In this document: positions 34,177-61,466 of the stretch, one piece after another
Numbering within the stretch: the stretch's first letter is position 1
How the letters are laid out: each line of letters starts with the position of its first letter
Sequence record: KJ190157
Length of the DNA stretch: 64,000 bases
Origin: Escherichia phage vB_EcoS_FFH_1
Direction: 5' to 3' (one strand)
Made by a program: the position numbers and the translations under genes
The notes under the pieces: generated by a model
What the model saw: only the letters and a program-made list of their open reading frames with translations
Told to the model about the DNA's origin: nothing
Databases searched by the model: none

Positions 34177-34184
34177 GCAGAAAT

Positions 34185-34261: not shown

Positions 34262-34268
34262 TTAAATT

Positions 34269-34359
34269 TGGTGTTGGATGATGGAGTCGAACCACCCGAG
34301 ACCCTTCCGAGTCGGCAGATTTACAGTCTGCTTCGCTACCTCTACGATACTAATCCAAC
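34269..34359 (-). tRNA. tRNA-Tyr(GUA), class II
   Basis: 91 nt with long variable arm; perfect anticodon stem GCAGA/TCTGC, loop TTTACAG. Confidence 0.7.
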
Positions 34360-34489
34360 ATATTTAGAAGTATTCAAAAATTCTCATTTAAACACTTTTA
34401 AATATGTTTTCAAATTAGGTAACTATTATACCAAGTTTTAAGGCACTGAGCAAGTCAAATTTTAAAGAACTTGCTCAGTGCTATATTAG

Positions 34490-34765
34490 TTAGTCGAACT
34501 TAGGAGTGACAGTTAAGGAGAACGGAAGTTCGAAAACTTCTTCACCCTCATTACTAACGGTAACTACACGACCTTTAAGTTCAGACATTAAAATATCAAT
34601 ATCAGCTTTTGCATCTGGAGCCATGCCAGCTTCAATACATTTAGCTTTAACCTCCGGTAGAAGATCTACGTTATAGAGATAGAGCCACTCAATCTCACCT
34701 TCCCAGTCTTCCCAGGATTTGCAGATTGCACTTTCAATACCAGTTGCTGCAACACGATTTTGCAT
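34490..34765 (-). CDS. hypothetical protein
   Basis: 91 aa; promoter 34785-34814. Confidence 0.5.
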   Translation of the reverse strand: MQNRVAATGIESAICKSWEDWEGEIEWLYLYNVDLLPEVKAKCIEAGMAPDAKADIDILMSELKGRVVTVSNEGEEVFELPFSLTVTPKFD

Positions 34766-34784
34766 TCGTTAACTCCTTCATCAA

Positions 34785-34814
34785 TTTATACAACTATTAT
34801 ATCAGAAATTTAAA
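34785..34814 (-). promoter_or_regulatory. T5-type early sigma70 promoter
   Basis: TTGCCT, 18 bp, TATAAT. Confidence 0.6.
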
Positions 34815-34855
34815 GCAAAAGGCAAGTACATTTTTAAAAATTCTGTTTGGAGGAG

Positions 34856-35062
34856 CTAAACTCCAGATTCTTCAGCTAAGTCTAGGCTAATAAGAGTTAT
34901 AGCCATAATTGCTGCACCGTGTTCTTTTTCTCCGGTGTTTTTAGCAGAGTCTATAATAGTCTTAATCTGTTCGTAATAGCCTTTTACTTCTTGTTCAATA
35001 CCTGCCTCGGCTATCATGCCTTTAGTCATGATTCGTTGCATAGTAATTTCACGGTTAGCCAT
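34856..35062 (-). CDS. hypothetical protein
   Basis: 68 aa. Confidence 0.4.
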   Translation of the reverse strand: MANREITMQRIMTKGMIAEAGIEQEVKGYYEQIKTIIDSAKNTGEKEHGAAIMAITLISLDLAEESGV

Positions 35063-35238
35063 GATGTTTCTCCAGCTTCATTTTTAATAGTTTACAAATG
35101 AAATCAACGTCTTCATCTGTACCTAGATCTCTATCTTCAAGAGTTGCCTTGAAGTTTTTAGTCAATTCCATGAGGATAACTTCTCTAGAACGACGTGTTG
35201 GCGGAGGTGGATGTCTATACATCTTATTTCCTTAGTTT

Positions 35239-35315
35239 GGTAGGGGTGGTGGGATTCGAACCCACAAAACCTGAATTTTAAGTCCAGTACCTATGCCAAT
35301 TCGATTACACCCCCG
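35239..35315 (-). tRNA. tRNA with UAA anticodon (Leu by anticodon), class I shape
   Basis: 77 nt; perfect T-arm GTGGG-ATTCGAA-CCCAC; loop TTTTAAG; discriminator A. Confidence 0.5.
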
Positions 35316-35321
35316 TGTAGT

Positions 35322-35510
35322 TTAGTCAATTACTTTTGAGGCTTCAAGGTAGTCGATATAGTGTATGTTTTCTACCGTAATCATATAATCTGCCACTTTA
35401 TCCATAGCTTGGGCTTCAGAGGTAGCTCTGGCTAACCTATATCCTTTTTTATATTCATCCGGGTATTCTCTATCTTGGATAAACACAACATAAACTATAT
35501 ATAGATCCAT
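35322..35510 (-). CDS. hypothetical protein
   Basis: 62 aa. Confidence 0.4.
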   Translation of the reverse strand: MDLYIVYVVFIQDREYPDEYKKGYRLARATSEAQAMDKVADYMITVENIHYIDYLEASKVID

Positions 35511-35529
35511 TTGTGACCTCTATTTAATT

Positions 35530-35607
35530 TGGTGGCTCCCCGAGGATTCGAACCTACGTACCTTCCGGTTATGAGCCGGGTGCTCATACCATATGAGCTT
35601 GAGAACC
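35530..35607 (-). tRNA. tRNA-Met(CAU), possibly initiator
   Basis: loop TTATGAG; three consecutive G-C pairs at base of anticodon stem; weak T-stem. Confidence 0.5.
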
Positions 35608-35613
35608 AGAATT

Positions 35614-35702
35614 TGGCGGAAGAAGCGGGAATCGAACCCACAAGGCTATATTTCAAACCGACAGATTAGCAATCTGCTGCAATACCGTTATGCTATTCTT
35701 CC
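35614..35702 (-). tRNA. tRNA-Ser(GCU), class II
   Basis: 89 nt; perfect acceptor; anticodon stem GCAGA/TCTGC; loop TTAGCAA. Confidence 0.6.
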
Positions 35703-35717
35703 GAATTTATAAGATAT

Positions 35718-35746
35718 ATTATATTAGAAATTTAGCTTCATAGCAA
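35718..35746 (-). promoter_or_regulatory. T5-type promoter driving tRNA block 35702-35239
   Basis: TTGCTA, 17 bp, TATAAT. Confidence 0.7.
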
Positions 35747-36242
35747 GAAAATTTTTCAAGTTTTCGGTAGACATCTCATCCACATCTACGGGAGAAACAA
35801 AGCCGTTTAATTTTCTAGCAAATTTTTCACCCGCAGGATCATTGTCCCCAACAGCTACCAATTTAAAAGGTAGTAATTTCAGTTGCTTTAATAACGCTTT
35901 TCCTGGAGAAGAACCCAACATTGCTAGGGCTGGATAACCAGCATTATGTAACGCAACTGCCTTAAATACAGATTCAGCAATCAATACTACTTTTTCATCT
36001 CCATTGAGAGTTTCTAGTCCCCATACACACTGGGTAGTAGAATAAGTAAAGTATTTAGCTTCAAAGGGGCACTTACCATGACCTTTTGGAGCAGAAGGAT
36101 TATAAGTTTGATAGCCCCTCAACATCCCGGAGAAGTCATACAACGGGACTGTTAGCCATCCTTCCGGACTTAACCAGCAATGATATTTATCTGTATCAAA
36201 TCCTCTAGATAAGAGGTGCTGTGTTAGCTCATCAACATTCAT
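35724..36242 (-). CDS. Toprim-domain protein
   Basis: start set at MNVDEL after AAGAGGA RBS; conserved Glu (LIAESVFKA) and VAVGDNDPAGEK (DxD) Toprim signature. Confidence 0.55.
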   Translation of the reverse strand: MNVDELTQHLLSRGFDTDKYHCWLSPEGWLTVPLYDFSGMLRGYQTYNPSAPKGHGKCPFEAKYFTYSTTQCVWGLETLNGDEKVVLIAESVFKAVALHNAGYPALAMLGSSPGKALLKQLKLLPFKLVAVGDNDPAGEKFARKLNGFVSPVDVDEMSTENLKNFLAMKLNF

Positions 36243-36272
36243 ATTTGGTTCCTCTTTCAAATTTATAGATAT

Positions 36273-36301
36273 ATTATACAGAGAATTTAGCATTCAAGCA
36301 A
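36273..36301 (-). promoter_or_regulatory. T5-type early sigma70 promoter
   Basis: TTGCTT, 17 bp, TATAAT. Confidence 0.7.
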
Positions 36302-36417
36302 TCAAATTTTTTAACTTTTTAGAGGAAAATCATAGGGCACTTAAGGATAGCAGATAAGTGGTGAGGACCAAAATTTGTGACCCCACTAAAAATCCTGGGG
36401 CAATTTTTAAAGACCCC

Positions 36418-36446
36418 TTGACATTTTCGCTGGGGTAGTGTAAAGT
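36418..36446 (+). promoter_or_regulatory. candidate sigma70 promoter for the plus-strand Gly/Gln/Cys module
   Basis: TTGACA, 17 bp, TAAAGT (weak -10). Confidence 0.4.
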
Positions 36447-36508
36447 ATATGTTATGGATGAGTGATCAAATAGACACACATTTTCTATATACTAGGAGGT
36501 GTCAAAAA

Positions 36509-37492
36509 ATGACAGAAGAAGTAACTAAGAGTCCTGAGACCGTCGCTAGCGTTGCAGCAGAATTGCACCGTCACGAGGAATCAGATAAGAAAAAGTGGGA
36601 GAAGGTCAGAGCCTACGAAGAAAAACATCGTGAACACGATGATAAAGAAGATGATGATGAACATTGTCATAAATATGGAAAACATAAAATGCAAGAACCA
36701 GTAAACGTATTCACTAGTGGCTTCCCTGGCCTACTGGGTGGTTATCCAGCAAACGCAAGTGCTTTCGGTGGTGAAGGTATGGGACTATTCGGAGCTATCC
36801 TAATCGGTGCTCTATTAACAGGCGGATTCGGTGGTTTCGGTGGATTCGGCGGACGTGGTGTAGTTGGTGAAGGTACCGCAGTTGATGCAGTACTTCAGAA
36901 CCAAGATACCGCTAGTATTCTAGCAGCTATTAACACTACTCGTACAGAAGCTAACCAGGGTACTGGAGCTGTTTTAAGCGCAGTTAACAATGGTTTTAGC
37001 CAGACATCCCAAAACCAGAGCCGTGATACTCAGTCTGTACTGACTACGATCTATGGTACAGGTGCTAATCTGTCTAATCAGATCTGTCAGGAAACTCGCA
37101 ACGTTATTCAGGGTCAGTTCGATCTTTCTCGCCAGATTGATCAATCTTTCGCAGCTAATCAGATAGCTCGTGCACAAGATAAGTTTGATTCTGCACAGAT
37201 CGCTTTCCAGCAGACTTTACAAACTAATAACCAGTTTGCCGCTGTTCAGGCTCAGATGTGTGCTAATCAGAACTCTCTGGAACGTCAGATCGCTGAATGT
37301 TGCTGTGAACTTCAGACTGCGATCGCTGGTGTAACTACTGCGCGTATCCAGGATGAGTTAGATGCATGTCGTCTACGTGAAGCAATCGCTGCGGGTAACG
37401 GTGCTAACGGTCAGGTAATTAATCAAATCGCTGTAAGTCTTGGTGCTATAACTCAGACTCTGGCTGGTCTGCAGGCTAAACTGCCGGCTTAA
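36509..37492 (+). CDS. Gly-rich/Gln-Asn-rich protein of unknown function
   Basis: start at ATG after AGGAGG RBS; charged His/Asp/Lys N-terminus, glycine-zipper hydrophobic segment (GGFGGFGGFGG), Q/N/S/T-rich C-terminus with CCC; E. coli-like codon usage. Confidence 0.6.
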   Translation: MTEEVTKSPETVASVAAELHRHEESDKKKWEKVRAYEEKHREHDDKEDDDEHCHKYGKHKMQEPVNVFTSGFPGLLGGYPANASAFGGEGMGLFGAILIGALLTGGFGGFGGFGGRGVVGEGTAVDAVLQNQDTASILAAINTTRTEANQGTGAVLSAVNNGFSQTSQNQSRDTQSVLTTIYGTGANLSNQICQETRNVIQGQFDLSRQIDQSFAANQIARAQDKFDSAQIAFQQTLQTNNQFAAVQAQMCANQNSLERQIAECCCELQTAIAGVTTARIQDELDACRLREAIAAGNGANGQVINQIAVSLGAITQTLAGLQAKLPA

Positions 37493-37513
37493 TATTAAGG
37501 GGAGGAGCCCATT

Positions 37514-37930
37514 ATGAGTAAATATGGTTTTGTAAATAACGGACTTAATCAAAGTATGGGCTCCCAGCAGCCCCTGCCTGGTCTGGATAACCCCTACTTA
37601 CAACAATTGCAACAGCGTTTAGCAGAAGCGCAACAGATGCAGCAACAACTCCAGCAAAACCCTGGAAGTGTGAGTCCTATGCAAATGATGCAGCAAATGA
37701 GCGGGCAGTCGCAAATGCCTCAACAAATGCAGCAACAGGTGCCTCAGCAGCAAGTTCAGCAACAAACCCAACAACCGCAGGTTTCTGCGGAAGGACAGGC
37801 AGTACTAGCCCTTTTCGAAGACTTCGCAAAGACAGAGGATGGGAAACAGCTTGTATCACTTATGGGTAAGTTTAATAGCTTCTGCCAAAGCCAAGTTGCA
37901 AAAGCTCAAAATGGTGGTAATAACTCCTAA
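37514..37930 (+). CDS. Gln-rich low-complexity protein
   Basis: 138 aa; strong RBS GGGGAGGAG; poly-Q/M tracts. Confidence 0.55.
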   Translation: MSKYGFVNNGLNQSMGSQQPLPGLDNPYLQQLQQRLAEAQQMQQQLQQNPGSVSPMQMMQQMSGQSQMPQQMQQQVPQQQVQQQTQQPQVSAEGQAVLALFEDFAKTEDGKQLVSLMGKFNSFCQSQVAKAQNGGNNS

Positions 37931-37939
37931 GGAGAAATT

Positions 37940-38134
37940 ATGTGTTGCAGAAAACCTGTTTCGTGCTGCCCAATGCCTGTAGCACGTTGTTGCTCTCCAG
38001 CAATGTTTACACAAATACCGGCGTTCAATCCCTTTGCCTTTAAGCCTACTCTTATCCTGCCCCCTAGAGTAGATTTTCAGTCAAGATTGGCCTCCCGTAT
38101 GGGTGGTTGCTGTACACCGAGAGTGTGGTTCTGA
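37940..38134 (+). CDS. small Cys-rich protein
   Basis: 64 aa; paired cysteines (MCC...SCCP...RCCSP...GGCCTP); RBS AAGGAGA; terminator follows. Confidence 0.5.
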   Translation: MCCRKPVSCCPMPVARCCSPAMFTQIPAFNPFAFKPTLILPPRVDFQSRLASRMGGCCTPRVWF

Positions 38135-38148
38135 AGAACCAAACAATA

Positions 38149-38182
38149 AAGCCCCTAGTCGAAAGACTTAGGGGCTTTTCTG
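38149..38182 (+). terminator. terminator ending the plus-strand module
   Basis: AGCCCCTA...TAGGGGCT followed by TTTT; A-rich on the other side. Confidence 0.7.
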
Positions 38183-38192
38183 TATTTAAGAT

Positions 38193-38230
38193 AAAAGAAA
38201 AGCCCTGCGCTCTCCAGGGAACGCAGGGCT
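38193..38230 (-). terminator. terminator after SPFH gene
   Basis: perfect 9-bp stem AGCCCTGCG/CGCAGGGCT, U-rich on minus strand. Confidence 0.7.
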
Positions 38231-38254
38231 TACTTCAGATGTTACATGCGGATA

Positions 38255-39202
38255 TTATTTATTACGCATATCCATGATCATTTGACCATCGTAGCCAGTA
38301 CCTACCACAGTCTGTGGTACACCACCTTGATATTTCTGAGCACGAATCATTTCGACTTCCAGTTGTTTCCAACGAATCATCTCAGGAGTAATGGTACGTT
38401 GCAGTGCGGCGTTAGCTTCAGCTTCTTTCTTAGCTGCGTACAGTTTAGCATCTGCGTCACGTTCATTAGCGATAGCTTGGTTGTTGCGAGCTTCACGATC
38501 TGCTTCTGCTTGTTTAACTTTTTGCTGTGCTTCCTGTTCAACACGAGCTAATTCAGCTTTAGCAGCATTAACCTGTTCTTCACGAACTTTGGTATTCTGT
38601 ACCTGTTCCATGATTACCGGTGGCAAAGTAATATCCTGAAGGAATACCTGCTTAACTGTGTAACCATATGGGCGTGCATACTCTTCAACTTCCTGTTGAA
38701 TTGCAGTTTGCAATTGAGCCTGAATTTTAGCATCAAACAAATCTTGTGCTTTAGGTACAGACTTACCAAACTCACGAATAGTAGACAGTAATTTTTCAGT
38801 TACATATTTGTCTAACGCTTGATCCTGAGTACCTGCGTTAATACGGTTAATTGGTGCCTTAGAACCATCAAACTGCAACATAACAGTCAGGTCAACAGTG
38901 GATTTAAACTTATCCTGGCTAGGAACCTGAAGTTTATCTAATTTTACAGCAATATCTTTTGTACTAAAAGTGTCGAAAGATGCAAATGGGTTTACAAGAT
39001 GGAAACCTGGTAATACTGGGTTAGGATCTACTTTACCCAGAAATGTTTGGGTTTTAACCGTACCATCAGAAACAATAGTATATGAATTAAAGGCTAGAAT
39101 CAAGCCTGCTAAACCAACTACAGCACCAATACCCCAACGTTTAATAGTACGAATTACTTTCTGCTCAGAAGTCAGTTCTTTCATATTTTTAGTATTAAAC
39201 AT
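38255..39202 (-). CDS. SPFH/band-7 (HflC/stomatin-like) membrane protein
   Basis: 315 aa; N-terminal TM, SPFH-like core, Ala/Glu/Gln-rich coiled-coil C-terminus. Confidence 0.65.
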   Translation of the reverse strand: MFNTKNMKELTSEQKVIRTIKRWGIGAVVGLAGLILAFNSYTIVSDGTVKTQTFLGKVDPNPVLPGFHLVNPFASFDTFSTKDIAVKLDKLQVPSQDKFKSTVDLTVMLQFDGSKAPINRINAGTQDQALDKYVTEKLLSTIREFGKSVPKAQDLFDAKIQAQLQTAIQQEVEEYARPYGYTVKQVFLQDITLPPVIMEQVQNTKVREEQVNAAKAELARVEQEAQQKVKQAEADREARNNQAIANERDADAKLYAAKKEAEANAALQRTITPEMIRWKQLEVEMIRAQKYQGGVPQTVVGTGYDGQMIMDMRNK

Positions 39203-39236
39203 ATATTTCCTTTGTTTTAGTTACAGTTAATAAAAT

Positions 39237-39311
39237 TGGCCGAGGTGACAGGATTCGAACCTGCATAAAGGAATTTAGAAGACTCCTGCCTCTCCCTTAG
39301 ACTACACCCCG
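39237..39311 (-). tRNA. tRNA-Arg(UCU)
   Basis: T-arm ACAGG-ATTCGAA-CCTGC; loop TTAGAAG; isolated just upstream of the SPFH gene. Confidence 0.6.
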
Positions 39312-39812
39312 TTTAAATATTTTTAAGAACTCTCGTAAAAACTCTTAAAAATACAGACGATACCGGGAGAGTCATAAGTCTCACTCATTAAGTATTTCAA
39401 GACAAAATACAGTAACGTCTATTATTTTCCAGTTTAAGTCAGGGTGACTTAGTGGTTATGTCCTGCGGTATATTGAGGACTCGGTTAGGCTTGGGGTCAT
39501 GACTTCCCGCCTTTTGCTGCTACTCAACAGGAGTTATCGCGAATTACCTGTGCTATTGTGCACCATTAGTGACATCTCTCATGTCAGCATTTCCCACTTT
39601 GTGGATAGCTTGAAAAACTACTCCGATATGGAGAAAAACTTCACTATCCTAGAATACCTTCTAAAGTTCTTCTTTAGCCTGGACATAGTTAAAGCGTAAT
39701 AAAACTATTCAGCAGACTGGTTGGTTAGTCTGGAACCAACTACCGCGTGGTTTAGGCAGTGCGCAACTAACCTCGGAAGCTTTTACGTTAAAAGCATCAG
39801 TTATCCAGTTCT

Positions 39813-39884
39813 TACCGACCGTAGGATTCGAACCTACATCTTCCACCAGTTACGGCTTGATAATACCAATTATACTAGGACGGC
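39813..39884 (-). ncRNA. tRNA-like element, identity unresolved
   Basis: perfect T-arm GTAGG-ATTCGAA-CCTAC and partial acceptor pairing, no convincing anticodon arm. Confidence 0.3.
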
Positions 39885-51692: not shown

Positions 51693-51983
51693 TTATTCAA
51701 TTACTTTAGCTCTAGCTACTTCTTTTAATAGAATATCTATAGAGGTGCTCAGCTCATTATAATTGAATGGTTTATTTGGATTTGAGGTTACAATTTTCCA
51801 CGCTAGGGTTGTCTTAGGACTTTCTTCCCCTTCCTTACGTGTAATCATATTAGCAGCACTCAGTGAAGTACGATGTATTTTAGTTTTACGGCTCAGATGA
51901 ACGACGTTTCCCATATTACACCTTCCCCATGTCTTTAAAAATGTCATAGAATGCTTTAGACTCAACAGAACGAACGTTATCAA
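51693..51983 (-). CDS. hypothetical protein
   Basis: 96 aa; overlaps phoH 3' end in another frame. Confidence 0.3.
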   Translation of the reverse strand: MITFVLLSLKHSMTFLKTWGRCNMGNVVHLSRKTKIHRTSLSAANMITRKEGEESPKTTLAWKIVTSNPNKPFNYNELSTSIDILLKEVARAKVIE

Positions 51984-52677
51984 TCAATTCGATCATTGAG
52001 AAGGGGGCATTTTCGTATTTCTCATAGACTTCCATAAGGAGTGCTAGACCTGAGTCACCTTTAATGTCTTTCTGAGCTATATCTCCGCAGATAATTAAAC
52101 GGCAGTCTTGTCCTACACGGGTTAGGAGACAAATCATTGCCTCAACGGAAATATTCTGAGCTTCATCGACAATTACATAGGAGTTGTTGAAAGTTCTGCC
52201 ACGAGCATGTTCGATAGCCAAAAATTTAATTTTCTGACGTTCGACATATCCTTTATATGCATGATCGCCGATGGCCCATTTCATACCATCAGCTATTGGC
52301 TCCAACCAAGGCTCTAGCTTTTCCGCTAGATCACCAGGAAGCATACCAAGAGACTTACCTAGAGGTTCATTAGGACGTACGAGAATCACTTGCTCAATAT
52401 CTGAGTGAATGTCTACTAGTTCCTGAGCTGCAAGAACGGACGGAATAAAGGTTTTACCAGTACCTGGCTCACCGATACCCACAGTCACTGTGTTGTTCTT
52501 GATCATATTGATATATGATTTTTGCTCGCGGTTTTTACCTACTAGGGATTTAGCAACTGGGTTAGCGTAATCATTAGAAAAATCAGCCTGAATTACGTTA
52601 TTCTCATATTTGTTGCCACGCTTTCTTGAACCATTGCGGTTCTCTCTTTTTTGACGTGCTTTTCCCATAAATAACAC
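51916..52677 (-). CDS. phoH: PhoH-like ATPase
   Basis: 253 aa; Walker A GEPGTGKT and PhoH blocks. Confidence 0.85.
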   Translation of the reverse strand: MLFMGKARQKRENRNGSRKRGNKYENNVIQADFSNDYANPVAKSLVGKNREQKSYINMIKNNTVTVGIGEPGTGKTFIPSVLAAQELVDIHSDIEQVILVRPNEPLGKSLGMLPGDLAEKLEPWLEPIADGMKWAIGDHAYKGYVERQKIKFLAIEHARGRTFNNSYVIVDEAQNISVEAMICLLTRVGQDCRLIICGDIAQKDIKGDSGLALLMEVYEKYENAPFSMIELIDNVRSVESKAFYDIFKDMGKV

Positions 52678-54904: not shown

Positions 54905-54938
54905 CAGCCGGGTTGCTAGTCGACCTGGCTTTTATTTT
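54905..54938 (+). terminator. rho-independent terminator after nrdD
   Basis: imperfect hairpin GCCGGG...CCTGGC followed by TTTTATTTT. Confidence 0.6.
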
Positions 54939-54940: not shown

Positions 54941-54969
54941 TTGCTTTCAGCCAAAAATTTATATATAAT
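54941..54969 (+). promoter_or_regulatory. T5-type sigma70 promoter
   Basis: TTGCTT, 17 bp, TATAAT. Confidence 0.7.
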
Positions 54970-54998: not shown

Positions 54999-55379
54999 AT
55001 GACTTTAAAACCGTATATAGTGGAGTCTACGTGTGGCAGTTTCCACCTGGGTGTGGATGATATTGCTGAGGCTGTCTTTGCTGCCACAGGTGATTACTCT
55101 CATATAGGGGGTGCTGGGTACCCCACCGTTATTGGCGATTGGGTGGAAACAAATCTAGATGTGTCGCCTTATAACCCGTATTGCTTGTTTGATGAAGACA
55201 GAGATGAGGTAAAGTGTAATCTTGAATTTGTGTATAATAGAGTATTAAAAGTATACCAACGTAGTCCCGAGGGGTACGGAGATATTACTTGTAGTATTAA
55301 ACAGTATCTTAAAGATGTATACTCTAGTTTTTCTGACGAAGGCCTAGAAACAGTTGCAGTGGAGTTTAATAATGACTAA
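54999..55379 (+). CDS. hypothetical protein
   Basis: 126 aa; own promoter 54941-54969. Confidence 0.5.
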   Translation: MTLKPYIVESTCGSFHLGVDDIAEAVFAATGDYSHIGGAGYPTVIGDWVETNLDVSPYNPYCLFDEDRDEVKCNLEFVYNRVLKVYQRSPEGYGDITCSIKQYLKDVYSSFSDEGLETVAVEFNND

Positions 55380-55578
55380 GAATGTGAAACACCTTAAATA
55401 TCGCTTAATCTATAACGGACGTATGGAAACAGAAGATCTGGCCCAATTAGCTATTAATTCTAATGAGGTTATGGTGCGTGCGCTAGCAATTGAAAAGTTG
55501 CGTGCTTCTTATGAAAATCGTGTTATGGAACTAGAGGAGAAACTGTATGGACTTCTTGAATCAGAGTCTAAAAAGTAA
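55354..55578 (+). CDS. hypothetical protein
   Basis: 74 aa; start may be internal MTKNVKH. Confidence 0.45.
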   Translation: MQWSLIMTKNVKHLKYRLIYNGRMETEDLAQLAINSNEVMVRALAIEKLRASYENRVMELEEKLYGLLESESKK

Positions 55579-55741
55579 TCCAGAAAACATGCTTATTGAG
55601 CAATGGAACTTTGGTTATAATGCCGGTATAGCTACTTGTATTGCTAGATTGGATATGCTTATTAAGCAAGAAAAGGTACGCCCGGAGGAAGCAATTTTAC
55701 TCCGAAATATTATCGAAGGATTTAAGCAAGGAATCGTATAG
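55547..55741 (+). CDS. hypothetical protein
   Basis: 64 aa. Confidence 0.45.
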   Translation: MDFLNQSLKSNPENMLIEQWNFGYNAGIATCIARLDMLIKQEKVRPEEAILLRNIIEGFKQGIV

Positions 55742-56565
55742 TGCGTAGACTAATTATTATTAGCGGTGCGGGTTTGAGTGTTGAAAGTGGTGTACGAGCT
55801 TTTCGTACTGATACTGCTAGTGGTAAAGCATTGTGGGATGATTATAATCTAGAAGAAGTATGTAATATTCATGCCTTTCGTGGTAATTTTTATCATAAAA
55901 CCCATATGTTTTACAACAAGCGACGTGAAGAGTTAGAAACTGTTGAACCTAACCTTGCGCATCTTCGTATTGGTGAGTGGTATAAGAAATATCCGGGTCA
56001 AGTAGTAAATTTGACTACTAACATTGATGACCTTATTGAGCGTGCTGGTGTTCCACATAATGATATTCTCCACATTCATGGATACTTAAAGGAGGTTGTT
56101 GTAGCTGATAGCTACAATAGTAGTAATAAACGAATTATTGATGTTGGGTATAACTCTATTGACCCAGAGGATTATAAATGGGTTAAACCTAACGTTATCT
56201 TCTTTGGTGAGCATGCTCCAGCATATACAGAAATGTACAATGTTTTTGATGGTATTACCAGTCAAGATATGATCATTGTGGTTGGTTGCTCTAACCAAGT
56301 AATTAACTTCTACTGGGAATTATTTCCTGTTCTTAATTTGACTGCTGCCAAATTAATGGTAGTTAACTACTACGATAGTGCCCTAGCGGCAGAACCAGGC
56401 TATCAAGGTATGACTCGTAGTGAGATGTACCAGTTGGAAGATCGTGGTATTCCTTACTGGAGTAAAGGTGCGGTAGATGCTTTTAGTGACCCTGATTTTA
56501 TTGCTCGTGTGGAAGCCCATTTAGAGGGTAGACCTTACGTGCCAGGGAAACAAATATGTCCATAA
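55741..56565 (+). CDS. Sir2-like (sirtuin family) protein
   Basis: 274 aa, probable GTG start; N-terminal GAGLSVESGVRAFR matches the sirtuin NAD-binding signature. Confidence 0.65.
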   Translation: MRRLIIISGAGLSVESGVRAFRTDTASGKALWDDYNLEEVCNIHAFRGNFYHKTHMFYNKRREELETVEPNLAHLRIGEWYKKYPGQVVNLTTNIDDLIERAGVPHNDILHIHGYLKEVVVADSYNSSNKRIIDVGYNSIDPEDYKWVKPNVIFFGEHAPAYTEMYNVFDGITSQDMIIVVGCSNQVINFYWELFPVLNLTAAKLMVVNYYDSALAAEPGYQGMTRSEMYQLEDRGIPYWSKGAVDAFSDPDFIARVEAHLEGRPYVPGKQICP

Positions 56566-56738
56566 TTAAATCTGTGTATACACACCCTGATGATATATTT
56601 GTATGGGCGGACGGTAGTTGGTGCTATCGCTGTGAACTGTGGGAAATGGACTATAAATCCGATGACTATGGTGTCATATATGTTGATACGGCTGAGTATG
56701 ATACGTTCTTAGAAAGGAACAAAAATGGAAATAAGTAA
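56556..56738 (+). CDS. hypothetical protein
   Basis: 60 aa. Confidence 0.4.
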   Translation: MSIIKSVYTHPDDIFVWADGSWCYRCELWEMDYKSDDYGVIYVDTAEYDTFLERNKNGNK

Positions 56739-57231
56739 TACTCCAATTATTTTTCTAGACATTGATGGGGTGCTCAATTCGAGCATCTCCCACCATCATG
56801 CACCTGATGATGAAAAGATTTTCTTTGGAAGTGACTGGGTTTTCAAACCGCTTCTCAAGGCTTTTCAGGACTTTATTCGTCCTTCTCCGATAATGATTGT
56901 TGGGGTATCCTCATGGTTCTCTGTCAGGAATGAGATGGAGAACGTTCAGATTATGACCGGATTAGGTCTTATCGATCGTTTTCTTGGTACAACGGATTTT
57001 ACTGGTGGTGGGCTATCTAGGGGTAATTCTGTTCTTCGCTTCGTTGAAAAGCATAAGCTCAAACATTGGTGTGTACTGGATGACGCTGGTGCTATGATGT
57101 ATCAGTATCCAACGGTTATAGTCAATGGTAGAACTGGAATAAATCTTCAAGATTTAAAAGCTGTTAGCTATATGCTAGAATTTAGCCCAGATCTTGAAAT
57201 GTGTAAATCCTTACAACAATTTAAGGTGTAA
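56725..57231 (+). CDS. HAD-superfamily hydrolase-like protein
   Basis: 168 aa; HAD motif I IIFLDIDGVLN. Confidence 0.55.
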   Translation: MEISNTPIIFLDIDGVLNSSISHHHAPDDEKIFFGSDWVFKPLLKAFQDFIRPSPIMIVGVSSWFSVRNEMENVQIMTGLGLIDRFLGTTDFTGGGLSRGNSVLRFVEKHKLKHWCVLDDAGAMMYQYPTVIVNGRTGINLQDLKAVSYMLEFSPDLEMCKSLQQFKV

Positions 57232-57233
57232 AT

Positions 57234-57662
57234 ATGTTCAATAATGTATTCTCTAAAGAAGCTAACCCAATTTTGGTTAACTTTTGGCGTACTCTCCCAG
57301 CTAGCCTGTATAATGAGGCTATTAACTCTTTGAAAATATGGTGTGAGAATAACGAAATCTCCTTTGCTTTTAAAGATGATATTGATGAGGCTCCCTGTAT
57401 TGTTTTAATTGTGCAGGTAGAGGAGGGTCTTGAAGAGATTGTGGGCTGGAAAGAGTTAGACGAAATGGGCTTAGTTTTTGCGTTAAATTATAAACTGTTT
57501 ATGCCTGCTAAGCATCGCCTTGTTGTTAACTATAAAACTAGTGAATCTCCTGGTTTTCAGGTTAATGAACGTTATGGTTGGTCTTACTCACCGGAAGAAG
57601 TAAATGAGGGGATTCAGAAACTTCGACGTTTCGGGTATATGATCCCGGGTTTAACTGCTTAA
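57234..57662 (+). CDS. hypothetical protein, paralog A
   Basis: 142 aa; shares blocks with downstream gene. Confidence 0.5.
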   Translation: MFNNVFSKEANPILVNFWRTLPASLYNEAINSLKIWCENNEISFAFKDDIDEAPCIVLIVQVEEGLEEIVGWKELDEMGLVFALNYKLFMPAKHRLVVNYKTSESPGFQVNERYGWSYSPEEVNEGIQKLRRFGYMIPGLTA

Positions 57663-57671
57663 GGAGGCAGG

Positions 57672-58064
57672 ATGGAACAAGTATATTGGCGTCAGATTGA
57701 CCCTAGTTTGGTGAAACGTGCGGAGAAGCTGCTACAACGTTGGTTGGGGGTAAGGCAAGCCTCCTTCTCTTTTCCGGAGCAGCAAACGGATGATCCATGC
57801 ATTGGCGTTTTCCTGTCTGGATATGCCGGGGAATGGGAGATGGATTGGAATGAATTGTCCGCTATGGGTTTAATTGTTGCCCTAAATTTCTCTTTGTTCC
57901 ATCCACGTGGTTTGGCCATATGTCGTGTGCCTGATGACGGTTGTTCGCCCCATCTTTTACAGGTGGAAGATGATATTTGGGAGTACACTCCAGATATTCT
58001 CAAAGAAGCTAAAGAACAATTAAACCGTGTTGGGATTTATGTTCCAGGCCTAAATGATGAATGA
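57672..58064 (+). CDS. hypothetical protein, paralog B
   Basis: 130 aa; RBS AAGGAGG; terminator at 58091-58118. Confidence 0.5.
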   Translation: MEQVYWRQIDPSLVKRAEKLLQRWLGVRQASFSFPEQQTDDPCIGVFLSGYAGEWEMDWNELSAMGLIVALNFSLFHPRGLAICRVPDDGCSPHLLQVEDDIWEYTPDILKEAKEQLNRVGIYVPGLNDE

Positions 58065-58090
58065 TTTTTACTAGCTGAACTCTGATTACC

Positions 58091-58118
58091 GAGTCAAAAT
58101 GACTCGGTTTTATCCGTA
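58091..58118 (+). terminator. rho-independent terminator
   Basis: CCGAGTCA-AAA-TGACTCGG followed by TTTTAT. Confidence 0.7.
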
Positions 58119-58155
58119 CTCAAGACCAATGATAGCACCATCCGGAAAATTTTAC

Positions 58156-58184
58156 TTGCAGGATGCCCAAAATCTTGATATAAT
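58156..58184 (+). promoter_or_regulatory. sigma70 promoter with ~490-nt leader before the 929-aa NTPase gene
   Basis: TTGCAG, 17 bp, TATAAT. Confidence 0.6.
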
Positions 58185-58676
58185 ATTTATATTGAGAGAC
58201 ATTAGTAAAAATTGATTTTGCTAATTTTTCTTGTTTACAATCCGCGATACGGAACAGTTAGGCTGCCCCATTAAGGGTTGTTTTAACTATTACTAGTGTT
58301 TATATTGCATTAGTTAATCTTCAATTAAGTGATCTGTGTACCCTGAATTCGGAAAGGTAAATCCAAACCGTGCATATTTAGCTCGTTATATAGGCAGAGC
58401 TTTATATGGGGGTGCGAACGAAAAGAGCAGCGAATGGCGGCACGTACAGTAGTCACCTACCAATAGGATAGTGAGGACAAATAGAATCGGCTTAGCGGCC
58501 AATGACCTAGGTTCTATTCTGTATATGAGCGAAGAGAGCACAGCACTGAGATATGATAACTTATTCATATTGTTTGATGATAATTGATGTTTACGTAAAT
58601 AGTAGTAATAGTTGTTCTATTCTTTCTGAATAGTCCTAAAGAAAAGATTTCTATTAATCAACACAGGAGTATTGTT

Positions 58677-61466
58677 GTGTTTTCTATCCTCCAAGGTCAC
58701 GCCGGTTTTTCTCGTGATTTAGCAACAGGTATTTGGCGAGAAATCAAAGCGGAAGATTATACCTTTGCCAAACGATTCTCGAAAGAGCATCCAGAAGGTA
58801 AACCAGCTTCTATGCCCTTCAAATTTGATGTAATAGAAGAGCACGACCCACAAAGCCTTGCCGAAATGTTACCACTTATGAGACGTTTAACGTCTGACCC
58901 TCATATCGTTGCGGTACGAGGTCGATGTCTTGCACCTAAAAATAATGTGCGACGTAAGAAAGGTAACTTTAATGTATCCAACCCTAGCAATATTATTGCT
59001 ATGGACGTGGATGGTATCCTAGATACCGGTGGGTATGACAAGTTTAATCTTGTAGGTATGGCTCGCCACATTATTAAGATGTTGAATAGTATTAGTGAGG
59101 ATATGTTTCCTCTTGATGCAGGGTTTATTGCTCATGCATCGTCTTCGGCTGGCCTAAAACCAGGTATCCGAATGCACTTAATGCTAGAATCTAACGTCAA
59201 GGTAACTCAAGGTCAGTTAAAGTTCTTATTTACGTCTATCAATGATAGTAGTAAGCAAAAATTCGGTTTTGATATTGCCGACTTAGCTTATTACTCATCT
59301 GTCCAGCTTCACTATTTTGCCGACCCTTTATTTAGCGATGGTATTGTTGATCCGTTTAAAGCGGAGAGTAAGCCACGTCTGGTATATGTTAAAGGTTCGA
59401 AGGTAAATTTGCCCAATAATCTGGTTGACTATGAAACAACTAGAGGGGAATTTAAGGAAGAGTTTTATTCTTTACTTGATCAAATTAAAGGCAAAAAGAT
59501 TGCTTCTGATAAAGTAGAAGAAACCATCAGCGAATTGGAAGAAGCCGAGGATGGGGTGTACTTGCGTATTATCCCCAAACTCTACCATAGAGCATTAGAG
59601 GATGGTGTTGATTTCGCATGGCTAGAACGCGAGATTAAACCCGCTTTATCTGAATATATTGCAACTAAAGATAACAGTCGTAATATTCAAGATTACTTTA
59701 ATAACGGTCGTAAGCAGGCTCTCAAAGCGTTTGTTAATAATTCTAAACGTGAGATCCCATTAAATCTGAAGGGTGTTCCACTCAAGAAATTAGAAGTGGA
59801 TTCTCCACCAGAAGTTCCGTACCTGAAGATTAACATTGTGCCTCCAAAAGGCCATATAACATTTGTTAAGGCAAGTCTTGGTACTGGTAAGACTACGGCA
59901 GTAACTAAATGGCTGGACGCAGGTGTTCTTCCTGGCAACTTTTTAGCAGTTACAAATACTAGAGCACTGGTATCTTCAAACGCTAAGAAATTTAGCGCAG
60001 GACAATATGATAAGTCTGTAGATATGCTCAACTTTAAACGTGGAGCTATTGATCGTATGTCTACAACTATCCACTCTTTGCATAAGTTCAAAAGTTTTAT
60101 TGGTCAAATAGATACCATTTTTATTGATGAATGTGATGCTGTAATGAATGATCTATTATTCGCACCTGTTGTTAAGCAACGTCGCGAATGTATTCAAGTT
60201 CTACGTGACATCCTCATGACAGCTAAAACTGTAATTCTATCAGATGGTGATATTAGTGCCGAAACTATTGAAGCATATGGTTCTCTAATTGATTTTGATA
60301 AACCAGTAGCATTTTATAATCATCACCGTAAGATGCTGTCAAAAGCTCATGCTTATGAGTTCCCGGATGAATCCAGTATTTGGGTTGCACTTCAGACCTC
60401 TCTAGAGATGGGTGAGAAATCTATCCTAGTATCTGATTGTGGGCCGGATGAACTGAATGAGAAGGGCATGGCATTGCGTCGTAATACGGGTGCGCTAGTT
60501 AAGGAAATCCACTCAAACTCCACTTCAGATGTGGATATTAGACGTATTCTGGATTATACGACTAATGAGTTAATTGATCAACAAATTGACTGCTTATTAT
60601 GTAGTCCATCCGTAACGAGTGGCGTTGATTTCAACTATTTTGATAACGTATTTGTTATTACTAGAACTAGTAATCAAGCGCCAAACATGCGTTTCCAAGC
60701 AATTAGGCGCGACCGTGGTGCTCAGAATATCTATTATTTTATTGATAAATCTACGAGTGGATTCTCCGCAGGTTCTGAACAATATAATATTGATGAGGGT
60801 TGGCTGGAGTTAGCACAGCAATTATACGCACGTCGCAGAGAGCTAGAATCTAGGAACTATACTAGTACTTTACGTTATTACTTGCTTGATCAGGGTGCAA
60901 CTATTGATATTTTCAGTGAAAGTTGGGGAACTATTGAAGGTGCTGGTAAAGAGTACACAGAAGAGCGAATTAAAGCTATTCTACATTCAACTCCTGATTA
61001 TTGTGCTCCACGTCATGCGGATGCGTATGAAGCTAAACTACTTCTTGTCCGCTATTATCATCTTGAGTCTATTAAAGATGTAACAGTTGAGCATGTTGAA
61101 CAATATATCAAAGATAAACCGAATGATCGAGCTGCATTCTTCCATAAGATGCACGAGATGTTCTGGGAAGATATTAAGAAGTGTTCAAATGTGACCATTA
61201 AACCATTCATAGAGGCTCTGAAAGGTAAGAAGAAAGACTTCTTCCTTAAAACAGGTCAGAGTGCTAACCCAAAATATGCTAGAATGTATCTTGGTATGAT
61301 GGGTATTGGTAAGGATATGAACACTGAAAATATTGTAGACTGGTACAGAACCTATTGTAAAATCGAGTGTATGCCAATCCCATATAAGTTTATGACTGAT
61401 GAGGAGAAACATATGCATGATGAAGCAATGGCAGAGCTAGGTGCTAGAAATGACAGTGAAGAATAA
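58677..61466 (+). CDS. large NTPase/helicase-like protein (possible replication origin-binding protein)
   Basis: 929 aa, probable GTG start after AGGAG; Walker A SLGTGKTTAV and Walker B IFIDECDAV. Confidence 0.55.
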   Translation: MFSILQGHAGFSRDLATGIWREIKAEDYTFAKRFSKEHPEGKPASMPFKFDVIEEHDPQSLAEMLPLMRRLTSDPHIVAVRGRCLAPKNNVRRKKGNFNVSNPSNIIAMDVDGILDTGGYDKFNLVGMARHIIKMLNSISEDMFPLDAGFIAHASSSAGLKPGIRMHLMLESNVKVTQGQLKFLFTSINDSSKQKFGFDIADLAYYSSVQLHYFADPLFSDGIVDPFKAESKPRLVYVKGSKVNLPNNLVDYETTRGEFKEEFYSLLDQIKGKKIASDKVEETISELEEAEDGVYLRIIPKLYHRALEDGVDFAWLEREIKPALSEYIATKDNSRNIQDYFNNGRKQALKAFVNNSKREIPLNLKGVPLKKLEVDSPPEVPYLKINIVPPKGHITFVKASLGTGKTTAVTKWLDAGVLPGNFLAVTNTRALVSSNAKKFSAGQYDKSVDMLNFKRGAIDRMSTTIHSLHKFKSFIGQIDTIFIDECDAVMNDLLFAPVVKQRRECIQVLRDILMTAKTVILSDGDISAETIEAYGSLIDFDKPVAFYNHHRKMLSKAHAYEFPDESSIWVALQTSLEMGEKSILVSDCGPDELNEKGMALRRNTGALVKEIHSNSTSDVDIRRILDYTTNELIDQQIDCLLCSPSVTSGVDFNYFDNVFVITRTSNQAPNMRFQAIRRDRGAQNIYYFIDKSTSGFSAGSEQYNIDEGWLELAQQLYARRRELESRNYTSTLRYYLLDQGATIDIFSESWGTIEGAGKEYTEERIKAILHSTPDYCAPRHADAYEAKLLLVRYYHLESIKDVTVEHVEQYIKDKPNDRAAFFHKMHEMFWEDIKKCSNVTIKPFIEALKGKKKDFFLKTGQSANPKYARMYLGMMGIGKDMNTENIVDWYRTYCKIECMPIPYKFMTDEEKHMHDEAMAELGARNDSEE

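What the first reader, a model, noticed from the sequence alone, without database searches (positions are those of the whole stretch)
55741..58064. Sir2-like protein followed by a HAD-like hydrolase and a tandem paralog pair
ORF 55741-56565 begins with the sirtuin NAD-binding signature (GAGLSVESGVRAFR) but, from what I can see, lacks an obvious four-cysteine zinc ribbon. It is followed by a HAD-motif protein (IIFLDIDGVLN) and two adjacent paralogous genes (57234-57662 and 57672-58064, sharing PCI, W.EL..MGL..ALN..LF.P and G...PGL blocks). Sir2 domains act in NAD-consuming bacterial immunity; a phage-borne Sir2 with an adjacent phosphatase-type enzyme could be a counter-defence or NAD-metabolism module, and the duplicated genes suggest recent diversification.
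Basis: partly seen in the sequence, partly recalled or inferred. Interest (0 to 1): 0.55.

Follow-up and report, generated by a model that had tools for sequence, protein, structure and literature searches.

The report
T5 phage sirtuin–phosphatase early operon
This is the known early operon of T5-like phages that encodes a zinc-less sirtuin, a small HAD phosphatase and two copies of an uncharacterised phage protein; comparative genomics had already predicted an RNA-repair role, which has not been tested by experiment.

Summary
The window is a T5-like phage, 94-97% identical to T5/AKFV33. Region 55741-58064 corresponds to T5.102-T5.107.

- **Sirtuin.** PF02146, E=4e-25. The closest solved relative is E. 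coli CobB. All NAD-binding and catalytic residues are present, but the Cys4 zinc ribbon is absent.
- **Small partner.** A conserved 60-aa ORF overlaps the sirtuin stop codon.
- **Phosphatase.** A capless HAD (PF18143 HAD_SAK_2) with all four catalytic motifs.
- **Paralogs.** Two DUF7415 proteins, 32% identical (E=4e-20).

All of these lie in one early transcription unit downstream of nrdD.

The sirtuin is CobB-like, not a defence-type NADase: it has no PADLOC hit. The paralog duplication is old, because both copies have separate orthologues in Klebsiella T5-like phages.

The sirtuin-HAD pairing in T5-like phages (phage SP15) was already described by Iyer et al. 2022. They predicted a Tpt1/KptA-like removal of RNA 2'-phosphate. 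A 58%-identical sirtuin in rV5 sits in an Rnl1-cREC-Sir2 operon, which supports that reading. Against it, T5 encodes no RNA ligase.

New minor points: the small sirtuin partner, the wide distribution of DUF7415, and a HAD homologue next to NARP1-like genes in one phage lineage.

Verdict: already known, function untested, moderate-to-low interest.

The parts
54941..54969 (+). sigma-70 type early promoter (TTGCTT, 17 nt spacer, TATAAT) just after the nrdD terminator
   Evidence: Read directly from the sequence. It lies at the same position as the promoter annotated upstream of T5.100 in NC_005859. The nrdD terminator at 54906-54930 was found by the scan.
54999..55379 (+). 126-aa protein of unknown function (T5.100 homologue)
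   Evidence: phrog_11748, E=3.6e-74. No significant Pfam hit.
55372..55578 (+). about 68-aa protein of unknown function (T5.101 homologue); the likely start is the ATG at 55372 inside the TTG ORF 55354-55578
   Evidence: phrog_5236, E=5e-46, matching residues 8-74 of the listed ORF.
55547..55741 (+). 64-aa protein of unknown function; not annotated in T5 itself but annotated in phage vB_EcoD-Elw
   Evidence: phrog_5827, E=4.6e-31; annotations.
55741..56565 (+). Zinc-less CobB-like sirtuin (T5.102 homologue), 274 aa
   Evidence: PF02146 E=4e-25; CobB 1S5P E=2.7e-18; phrog_2162 E=8e-121. Invariant in 40 clade members: G9, G11, S13, S16, G17, F21, R22, Y58, R61, R62, N71, H74, T92, T93, N94, D96, H113, G114, F154, F155, E157. 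No Cys4 motif. No PADLOC hit.
56556..56738 (+). 60-aa 'WCYR' protein (T5.104 homologue); its start overlaps the sirtuin stop by 10 nt
   Evidence: phrog_5116, E=2.3e-30. The motif D-I-F...G-x-W-C-Y-R is shared with the ORF directly after the sirtuin in T5 (two copies, T5.103 and T5.104), Roth37, L092 and L093 (contexts).
56725..57231 (+). Capless HAD-superfamily phosphatase, HAD_SAK_2 family (T5.105 homologue), 168 aa
57234..57662 (+). DUF7415 paralog A (T5.106 homologue), 142 aa; the degenerate copy
   Evidence: PF24187 E=1.7e-33. It keeps the family Asn but has Met in place of the invariant His and lacks the conserved Gly (A1 and A2 alignments). Orthologue in Roth37.
57672..58064 (+). DUF7415 paralog B (T5.107 homologue), 130 aa; the canonical copy
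58089..58113 (+). intrinsic terminator (CCGAGTCA-AAA-TGACTCGG followed by TTTTAT) that closes the operon
   Evidence: Read from the sequence. It lies 25 nt after the stop codon, exactly where T5 has an annotated terminator after T5.107. The consensus scan did not list it.

Best explanation
The region is a single early transcription unit of a T5-like phage, placed directly downstream of the anaerobic ribonucleotide reductase gene. Its core is a CobB-derived sirtuin that has lost the zinc ribbon, together with a capless HAD phosphatase.

The most likely function is the one already predicted for this neighbourhood: NAD+-dependent healing of RNA ends after host or defence RNases cut tRNA or other RNA.

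**Proposed steps (all inferred).**
1. The sirtuin acts like Tpt1/KptA. A 2'-phosphate oxygen of the RNA attacks C1'' of NAD+ and nicotinamide leaves.
2. The ADP-ribose 2''-OH, activated by His113, attacks the phosphate. This releases RNA with a 2'-OH plus ADP-ribose 1'',2''-cyclic phosphate.
3. The HAD enzyme removes a terminal RNA phosphate, or dephosphorylates the ADP-ribose phosphate by-product.
4. Sealing would have to be done by a host ligase such as RtcB.

**What is shown:** the domain identities, the intact active sites, the operon structure and the conserved linkage of sirtuin and HAD genes. **What is inferred:** substrates and chemistry.

The 60-aa partner ORF and the DUF7415 pair are co-transcribed. 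Their roles are unknown, and the DUF7415 pair may be functionally independent.
For: - **Domain identities and intact catalytic residues:**
- **One operon:** promoter at 54941-54969, overlapping or closely spaced ORFs, terminator at 58089-58113.
- **Linkage of sirtuin and HAD genes in two different gene orders.** Sir2-x-HAD in the window, T5 and Epseptimavirus. HAD-x-Sir2 in four further divergent T5-like contigs, L092, L093, L095 and L100.
- **Close homologues in clear RNA-repair settings.** The rV5 sirtuin, 58% identical, sits in an Rnl1 (PF09511) - cREC (PF20274) - Sir2 operon beside a polynucleotide kinase/phosphatase and a phosphoesterase. The GAP32 sirtuin (43%) lies downstream of a short gene annotated 'RNA ligase' and directly upstream of a Nudix gene. 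Iyer et al. report 2H, Nudix, cREC and PIN next to the sirtuin in jumbo phages.
- **Y58/R61 are invariant.** They align with the YxxR of CobB (FYNARR), which in class III sirtuins binds an anionic acyl group (my knowledge of Sirt5/CobB). That suits an anionic, phosphate-bearing substrate.
- **The HAD has no cap domain.** It is most similar to HADs that act on large or macromolecular substrates. Its Pfam family is defined from RNA-repair proteins.
- **The phage carries 23 tRNA genes.** This fits selective pressure from tRNA-targeting defences.
- **The prediction is published** for phage SP15, whose HAD is 97.6% identical.
Against: - No enzyme in this clade has been assayed. I found no experimental paper on a phage sirtuin of this type.
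- T5 and the window have no detectable RNA ligase, cREC, polynucleotide kinase, 2H or Nudix homologue. tblastn with the rV5, GAP32 and L094 proteins gave no hits, and the T5 annotation lists none. The pathway would therefore be incomplete without host enzymes.
- RtcB-type sealing needs no 2'-phosphate removal (my knowledge).
- The sirtuin keeps nearly every residue of a normal lysine deacylase, including the FFxE loop. Sequence alone cannot exclude a protein substrate.
- All HAD-Sir2 linkages lie within one phage family, so inherited gene order explains part of the signal.
- Klebsiella T5-like phages keep the sirtuin and the DUF7415 pair but lack the HAD.
Confidence: 0.4

Rival explanations
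1. The sirtuin is a genuine protein lysine deacylase, CobB-like and possibly a desuccinylase. It would reprogram host or phage proteins early in infection. The HAD enzyme would be an unrelated or loosely related phosphatase, for example a protein or nucleotide phosphatase.
For: The nearest relatives are CobB and Sirt5-type deacylases. All residues used for deacylation are invariant: GAGxS...SG..FR, YxxR, TTNxD, HG, FFxE. The best structural matches of the HAD include the protein phosphatases SCP1, UBLCP1 and Fcp1.
Against: The zinc-binding module found in characterised deacylase sirtuins is absent across the whole clade. Scores fall far below every NCBIfam CobB equivalog cut-off, e.g. 89.6 against 320 bits. 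Gene contexts of close homologues in other phages are RNA-end processing genes, not protein-modification genes.
Confidence: 0.22
2. The pair handles small NAD+-derived metabolites rather than RNA. The HAD would dephosphorylate ADP-ribose 1''-phosphate or a related ADPR phosphate, as a non-homologous counterpart of the Macro-domain phosphatase Adpp of NARP1-AP. The sirtuin would consume, exchange or transfer ADP-ribose from NAD+ or from an NAD-derived immune signal. The purpose would be to protect the NAD+ pool that the phage's own NAD-dependent DNA ligase needs.
Against: The HAD-NARP1 adjacency comes from one phage lineage only. The window and T5 have no Adps, Namat, NMNAT or NamPT homologue. 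An NAD-consuming sirtuin would work against NAD+ conservation. The Osterman paper does not mention HAD enzymes.
Confidence: 0.15
3. The genes are neighbours by descent only. The DUF7415 pair, and perhaps the small ORFs, are independent early 'accessory' proteins such as host-takeover, anti-defence or nucleotide-metabolism adaptors. They would have no functional tie to the sirtuin or the HAD.
For: The single-domain form of DUF7415 is widespread. It lies directly upstream of a P2 gpA-like replication initiator in 16 of 64 viral contigs. It lies between nrdD and nrdG in Klebsiella T4-like phages and after rnlA in an Aeromonas phage. It is fused to a MazG-like dATP/dGTP pyrophosphohydrolase or to a thymidylate-kinase-like domain in other proteins. 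Four T5-like lineages with HAD and Sir2 have no recognisable DUF7415.
Against: The pair is co-transcribed with the sirtuin, and it is retained beside the sirtuin in Klebsiella T5-like phages that lost the HAD. MazG and nucleotide-kinase genes are also reported next to this sirtuin clade in V5-like phages.
Confidence: 0.18

Closest known systems
Type-3 phage sirtuin neighbourhood of Iyer, Burroughs, Anantharaman and Aravind 2022 (Escherichia phage SP15: sirtuin + 'Swiss-army-knife-like' HAD phosphatase)
   Same: It is the same gene pair in the same phage group. The SP15 HAD is 97.6% identical to the window's. The paper predicts RNA repair with a KptA-like role for the sirtuin.
   Different: Nothing differs in the core pair. 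The paper does not mention the missing zinc ribbon, the 60-aa partner ORF, the DUF7415 pair or the position after nrdD.
E. coli CobB / class III sirtuins (Sirt5)
   Same: Best sequence match (E=2.7e-18). Shared NAD-binding motifs, catalytic His, the N-x-D (NID) motif, the FxE loop and the YxxR motif.
   Different: No Cys4 zinc ribbon. Scores are far below the CobB equivalog cut-offs. There are clade-specific insertions and a C-terminal extension. It is phage-encoded, with RNA-repair neighbours in related phages.
Tpt1/KptA RNA 2'-phosphotransferase
   Same: Proposed functional analogy only: an NAD+-dependent two-step transfer in which a substrate oxygen attacks C1'' and the ribose 2''-OH then attacks the substrate (Iyer et al.; mechanism from my knowledge).
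   Different: The fold is unrelated: Tpt1 belongs to the ADP-ribosyltransferase superfamily. No activity data exist for the phage sirtuin.
Defence sirtuins (ThsA, DSR1/2, Sir2-HerA, pAgo-associated SIR2; the 'SIRim' group)
   Same: Sir2 superfamily and NAD+ use.
   Different: No match to any PADLOC model. It is a single-domain protein without a sensor domain, is encoded by a lytic phage and is closest to housekeeping deacylases.
Adpp, the Macro-domain ADPR-1''-phosphate phosphatase of NARP1-AP (Osterman et al. 2026 preprint)
   Same: A phosphatase gene placed in a NARP1-like operon. HAD_SAK_2 homologues occupy such a position in Kashira-like phages.
   Different: Different fold (HAD, not Macro). 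T5 has no NARP1 genes. The substrate of the HAD enzyme is unknown.
Capless (C0) HAD phosphatases: MDP-1, SCP1/Fcp1, UBLCP1
   Different: Only 13-15% sequence identity. The physiological substrates of those enzymes (phosphoproteins, sugar phosphates) need not carry over.

Membership tests
Sir2/sirtuin superfamily (PF02146) | Rossmann-fold NAD+-binding motif GAGxSxxSGIPxFR and a score above the Pfam gathering threshold | tested here: met
   GAGLSVESGVRAFR is present. 89.2 bits against a cut-off of 24, covering profile positions 1-178 of 180. G9, G11, S13, S16, G17, F21 and R22 are invariant in 40 homologues.
Sir2/sirtuin superfamily (PF02146) | Catalytic His (HG motif) and the N-x-D (NID) motif that binds the nicotinamide ribose | tested here: met
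   H113-G114 aligns with the HG of CobB. T92-T93-N94-I-D96 aligns with TQNID. All are invariant in the clade.
Sir2/sirtuin superfamily (PF02146) | Cys4 zinc-ribbon module in the small domain | tested here: not met
   There are no Cys residues between residues 114 and 149. Clade members have at most two. CobB has its cysteines in the aligned stretch.
CobB / class III sirtuin deacylases | YxxR motif that binds acidic acyl groups | tested here: met
   FYNKRR aligns with CobB FYNARR. Y58 and R61 are invariant. The role of the motif is from my knowledge of Sirt5/CobB.
CobB / class III sirtuin deacylases | Score above the NCBIfam equivalog cut-off for CobB | tested here: not met
   NF040867 scores 89.6 bits against a cut-off of 320. 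NF001753 scores 99.5 against 243.
CobB / class III sirtuin deacylases | NAD+-dependent lysine deacylase activity | not testable with these tools
   Needs an enzyme assay.
Defence-associated Sir2 NADases (ThsA, DSR, Sir2-HerA, SPARSA) | Match to a defence-system Sir2 profile and linkage to a sensor or partner domain | tested here: not met
   No PADLOC hit at E<=0.01. The protein is single-domain, with no HerA, SLOG, TIR or Argonaute neighbour.
HAD superfamily phosphatase, HAD_SAK_2 (PF18143) | Motif I DxD, motif II S/T, motif III basic residue and motif IV acidic pair; HAD Rossmannoid fold | tested here: met
HAD superfamily phosphatase, HAD_SAK_2 (PF18143) | Action on RNA terminal phosphates | not testable with these tools
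   The function is implied only by the family name and by Iyer et al..
Phage sirtuin-centred RNA-repair neighbourhoods (Iyer et al. 2022) | Sirtuin of the distinct phage clade adjacent to an RNA-end processing enzyme (HAD, 2H, cREC, Nudix, Rnl1) | tested here: met
   The HAD lies 160 nt downstream of the sirtuin in the same operon. The clade relationship to the rV5 (58%) and GAP32 (43%) sirtuins is shown. Their contexts are confirmed.
Phage sirtuin-centred RNA-repair neighbourhoods (Iyer et al. 2022) | A phage-encoded RNA ligase to complete the repair | tested here: not met
   No tblastn hit to Rnl1 of rV5 or L094 in the window or in T5 1-90 kb. None is annotated in T5.
DUF7415 (PF24187) | Match to the Pfam model; conserved N...HPxG...GxS core | tested here: met
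   Both paralogs score above the cut-off (115 and 108 bits against 27). Copy B keeps the invariant residues and copy A has lost His and Gly.
NARP1-AP (Adps, Namat, Adpp) | Presence of Adps and Namat genes with an associated ADPR-1''P phosphatase | tested here: not met
   No Adps or Namat homologue in the window or in T5. The adjacency is seen only for HAD homologues in Kashira-like phages.

The most novel reading that the evidence does not exclude
The T5-type sirtuin would be the first sirtuin whose substrate is a nucleic-acid phosphate. It would be a zinc-less, CobB-derived enzyme that removes RNA 2'-phosphates with NAD+, as Tpt1 does, possibly with the 60-aa WCYR protein as a subunit replacing the lost zinc module. 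The stand-alone HAD_SAK_2 enzyme would be an ADP-ribose 1''-phosphate phosphatase. That one activity would explain its two contexts: next to the sirtuin (a Poa1p-like clean-up role) and next to NARP1 (an Adpp-like role against RES-type NAD+ phosphorolysis).
Probability: 0.2. Interest if true: 0.65.

Novelty: already known. Interest (0 to 1): 0.3.

Why it matters
The sirtuin clade occurs in about a thousand sequenced phages: T5-like, rV5-like, phi92-like and jumbo phages. None has been assayed.

If the Tpt1-like prediction is right, sirtuin chemistry would extend from acyl-lysine to RNA phosphates. It would also add an NAD-dependent repair step to the ways phages resist tRNA-cleaving defences. 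This matters for T5, a model phage often used to test defence systems.

If instead the enzyme is a deacylase or an NAD-metabolite enzyme, it would be a new host-takeover or counter-defence tool.

For this scan the finding itself is a correct re-discovery of an annotated, previously discussed module.

Tried and rejected
1. **Defence-type Sir2.** Rejected: no PADLOC hit.
2. **Recent tandem duplication.** Rejected by reciprocal best hits with Roth37.
4. **Internal duplication inside each DUF7415 protein.** The Pfam model hits the N half (6e-16) and the C half (2.4e-14) separately. My profile-profile comparison of the halves gave only 3% probability. This remains unresolved.
5. **Public annotations 'tail protein' and 'tail tube protein' for the DUF7415 genes, and 'Sir2' for the HAD gene.** I reject the 'Sir2' label for the HAD gene because of the Pfam HAD_SAK_2 match. 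The label traces to PHROG 18062, a 92-residue family that covers the HAD C-terminus. The 'tail' labels have no support in the Pfam or PHROG matches.
6. **Search for RNA ligase, cREC, PNK, 2H, Nudix and NARP1/2 genes in the window and T5.** No hits.
7. **NARP3 genes in the window (36-53 kb).** Not found among ten ORFs scanned.
8. **Literature on an assayed phage sirtuin, DUF7415 or HAD_SAK_2.** Nothing found. Burroughs and Aravind 2016 is not held in the library.
9. **Non-coding stretch 58114-58676.** No Rfam match at E<=1, and the fold z-score is -0.1.
Full report
**What the window is.** The 3.7 kb around the finding is 94-97% identical to Escherichia phage T5, AKFV33 and many Salmonella/Escherichia Tequintaviruses. 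447 phage records match. In the T5 reference the region is T5.100-T5.107, between nrdD (T5.099) and the origin-binding helicase-like T5.108. The gene has been annotated 'Sir2-like' in T5 records for years.

**Observation check.**
- ORF 55741-56565 matches Pfam SIR2 almost end to end (E=4e-25). It also matches E. coli CobB (1S5P, E=2.7e-18).
- The CobB alignment places GAGLSVESGVRAFR on the NAD-binding loop, FYNKRR on CobB's FYNARR, TTNID on TQNID, HIHG on the catalytic HMHG and FFGE on WFGE.
- The segment where CobB carries its zinc cysteines has none. The whole protein has three Cys (41, 183, 273). In 40 clade members (49-86% identical) no sequence has more than two Cys in that segment, while all the catalytic positions are invariant.
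- ORF 56725-57231 is a HAD_SAK_2 phosphatase (E=4e-20).
- The two downstream ORFs are 32% identical over 124 residues (E=4e-20). Both belong to DUF7415.

**Operon structure.** A strong terminator follows nrdD at 54906-54930. A TTGCTT-17-TATAAT promoter sits at 54941-54969, followed by a good ribosome-binding site. Eight ORFs follow with small overlaps or gaps. A stem-loop with a T-run at 58089-58113 closes the unit. Promoter and terminator lie exactly where T5 has annotated ones.

**The sirtuin.** It has no hit in PADLOC, so it is not one of the immune NADase sirtuins. It is closest to CobB-type deacylases but scores far below their equivalog cut-offs. The clade is large. tblastn finds it in 999 phage records: T5-like phages, Vequintavirinae (rV5, 58%), SSE121/EspYZU14-like phages (60-61%), Stephanstirmvirinae (51%), Erwinia phages, and jumbo phages such as GAP32 and Vibrio phages (about 41-43%).

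**The 60-aa partner.** The ORF directly after the sirtuin shares the motif D-I-F...G-x-W-C-Y-R in the window, T5 (two tandem copies, T5.103 and T5.104), Klebsiella phage Roth37 and the metagenomic T5-like contigs L092 and L093. It travels with the sirtuin even where the order of the other genes changes. Its function is unknown.

**The DUF7415 pair.**
- *Age of the duplication.* Copy A and copy B each have a separate orthologue in Roth37: A-A 7e-22 and B-B 5e-23, against 5e-6 for A-B within Roth37. The duplication is therefore old.
- *Conserved core.* The C-terminal half of copy B keeps the invariant residues of a widespread single-domain family with consensus IDWNxxSELGLIxRINxEILHPLGLAxxRxPETGxSxGxLVxxDGxWEY. 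Copy A has lost the His and a Gly.
- *Distribution.* An exhaustive profile search found 163 cluster representatives. Most are 60-160 aa proteins. A few are fusions to a MazG-like dATP/dGTP pyrophosphohydrolase (PF04447) or to a thymidylate-kinase-like domain.
- *Genomic contexts of the single-domain form.* It lies between nrdD and nrdG in Klebsiella T4-like phages and after rnlA in an Aeromonas phage. It lies directly upstream of a P2 gpA-like replication initiator in 16 of 64 IMG/VR loci, and a P2-like Aeromonas phage, phiO18P, also carries it.
- *Fold.* The model (pLDDT 87.7) has no significant structural neighbour in the PDB.
- *Internal repeat.* Pfam's model hits both halves of each protein. 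My own profile comparison of the halves does not support a repeat.

**Comparative contexts.** Within T5-like phages the sirtuin and the HAD are linked in two gene orders.

| Lineage | Gene order |
|---|---|
| Window, T5 | nrdD / three small ORFs - Sir2 - WCYR - HAD - DUF7415 A - DUF7415 B |
| L092 | nrdD - HAD - 81 aa - Sir2 - WCYR |
| L093 | nrdD - 79 aa - HAD - 117 aa - 108 aa - Sir2 - 59 aa |
| L095, L100 | PhoH / HAD - about 118 aa - Sir2 - small ORF |
| Klebsiella phage Roth37 | nrdD - small ORF - Sir2 - WCYR - DUF7415 A - DUF7415 B (no HAD) |

- *Outside the family.* The rV5 sirtuin sits in an Rnl1 - cREC - Sir2 operon next to a polynucleotide kinase/phosphatase and a phosphoesterase. 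The GAP32 sirtuin lies downstream of a short gene annotated 'RNA ligase' and directly upstream of a Nudix gene, close to NMNAT, NamPT and PhoH.
- *HAD next to NARP1-like genes.* In three ~145-152 kb phages (Kashira, L094, L099) a HAD_SAK_2 homologue heads an operon that continues with PRPP-synthetase-like and NAPRTase-like genes; a small ORF separates them in L094 and L099. This looks like NARP1.
- *Mosaic evolution.* Between Tequintavirus and Epseptimavirus the HAD is about 90% identical and DUF7415 B is 71%, but the sirtuin is only about 51%, less than to the rV5 sirtuin. This suggests the sirtuin gene has been exchanged between phage groups.

[quoted passage not shown] They propose that the sirtuin acts like KptA to remove 2'-phosphates. 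They add that the associated enzymes either resolve the cyclic phosphate or process the ADPr>P product. SP15 is a T5-like phage whose HAD is 97.6% identical to the window's. The core of the finding is therefore already in print as a computational prediction.

I found no experimental study of this sirtuin clade, of HAD_SAK_2 or of DUF7415. Osterman et al. (2026 preprint) show that some NARP1 operons include a Macro-domain ADPR-1''-phosphate phosphatase that counters RES-type NAD+ phosphorolysis. They do not mention HAD enzymes.

**Mechanism.** I rank the RNA-repair model first (0.4).
- *For.* Close homologues sit in unambiguous RNA-repair operons. The HAD family and its capless architecture fit macromolecular ends. 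The YxxR motif for anionic groups is invariant. Sirtuin chemistry (substrate oxygen attacks C1'', then the ribose 2''-OH attacks the substrate) maps directly onto the Tpt1 reaction. The phage's 23 tRNA genes fit pressure from tRNA-targeting defences.
- *Against.* T5 and the window have no RNA ligase, cREC, PNK, 2H or Nudix. The sirtuin still looks like a competent deacylase. All Sir2-HAD links lie within one phage family.
- *Rivals.* A CobB-like protein deacylase (0.22). An NAD/ADPR-metabolite module with the HAD as an ADPR-phosphate phosphatase (0.15). The NARP1 adjacency supports this last rival, but the adjacency comes from one lineage and T5 has no NARP genes. T5 does encode an NAD-dependent DNA ligase. 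For the DUF7415 pair in particular, simple synteny without a functional tie is also possible (0.18).

**Verdict.** The module is already known and annotated, and its sirtuin-HAD linkage has been published with a functional prediction. What this analysis adds is modest:
- the clade-wide loss of the zinc ribbon with retention of the YxxR motif;
- the conserved 60-aa sirtuin partner;
- the old age and asymmetric decay of the DUF7415 pair, and the wide distribution of its core domain;
- a HAD-NARP1 adjacency suggesting an ADPR-phosphate substrate.

Interest is moderate to low unless experiments confirm a sirtuin that acts on RNA.

Noticed in passing
window 27987-39884, minus strand: Twenty-three tRNA genes (Rfam RF00005, 32.6-65.5 bits) form the T5 tRNA cluster. 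This is relevant background for any RNA-repair or tRNA-defence reading.
   Followed up: partly
window 58114-58676: About 560 nt with no ORF lie between the operon terminator and the 929-aa origin-binding/helicase-like gene (58677-61466). The stretch has promoter-like hexamers. The same position in the T5-like contig L092 (9789-11252) is about 1.4 kb with no ORF longer than 87 codons. No Rfam match at E<=1, and the RNA fold z-score is -0.1.
   Followed up: partly
L001 5802-6308 (T5.105) and L002 3750-4580; public records: Mis-annotations are spreading in public records. The HAD gene is labelled 'Sir2 (NAD-dependent deacetylase)' in RefSeq T5 and many relatives. This traces to PHROG 18062, a 92-residue family covering the HAD C-terminus. 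The DUF7415 genes are labelled 'tail protein' or 'tail tube protein', labels that the Pfam and PHROG matches do not support.
   Followed up: yes
window 55741-56565 compared with Epseptimavirus and rV5-like phages: Mosaic evolution. Between Tequintavirus and Epseptimavirus (e.g. phage bobsandoy) the HAD is about 90% identical and DUF7415 B is 71%, but the sirtuin is only about 51%. The sirtuins of rV5-, SSE121- and EspYZU14-like myoviruses are 58-61% identical. This suggests horizontal exchange of the sirtuin gene.
   Followed up: partly
L006 5001-8221; L094 7001-10519; L099 6001-9569: In three ~145-152 kb phages (Serratia phage Kashira and two metagenomic contigs) a HAD_SAK_2 homologue heads an operon with PRPP-synthetase-like and NAPRTase-like genes, which looks like NARP1. 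It is transcribed divergently from a gene cluster ending in a DNA ligase; in L094 that cluster also holds Rnl1, an AAA_33 kinase-like gene and a Metallophos phosphoesterase. The HAD might play the role that the Macro-domain Adpp has in NARP1-AP.
   Followed up: partly
L003 4980-5213; L004 4995-5228; L012-L091 (e.g. L056 5267-7674): The single-domain DUF7415 protein is a common small early phage gene. It overlaps both nrdD and nrdG in Klebsiella T4-like phages. It follows rnlA in Aeromonas phage AsFcp_2. It lies directly upstream of a P2 gpA-like rolling-circle initiator in 16 of 64 viral contigs. Rare fusions to MazG-like (PF04447) and thymidylate-kinase-like domains exist (P0092, P0094, P0095).
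   Followed up: partly
window 51916-52677 (minus strand) and L092, L093, L095, L100, L011: A PhoH-like ATPase gene is transcribed divergently from the nrdD/Sir2 side in every T5-like contig examined. In the four metagenomic contigs a small DUF7430 gene follows it. In jumbo phage GAP32 a PhoH gene lies just downstream of Sir2-Nudix. This may be a recurring PhoH-sirtuin association.
   Followed up: no
window 55547-55741 and 56556-56738 compared with L001 5457-5815: Small-gene turnover within the operon. The window has one WCYR gene where T5 has two tandem paralogs (T5.103 and T5.104). It also has an extra 64-aa ORF (phrog_5827) upstream of the sirtuin that is not annotated in T5.
   Followed up: yes
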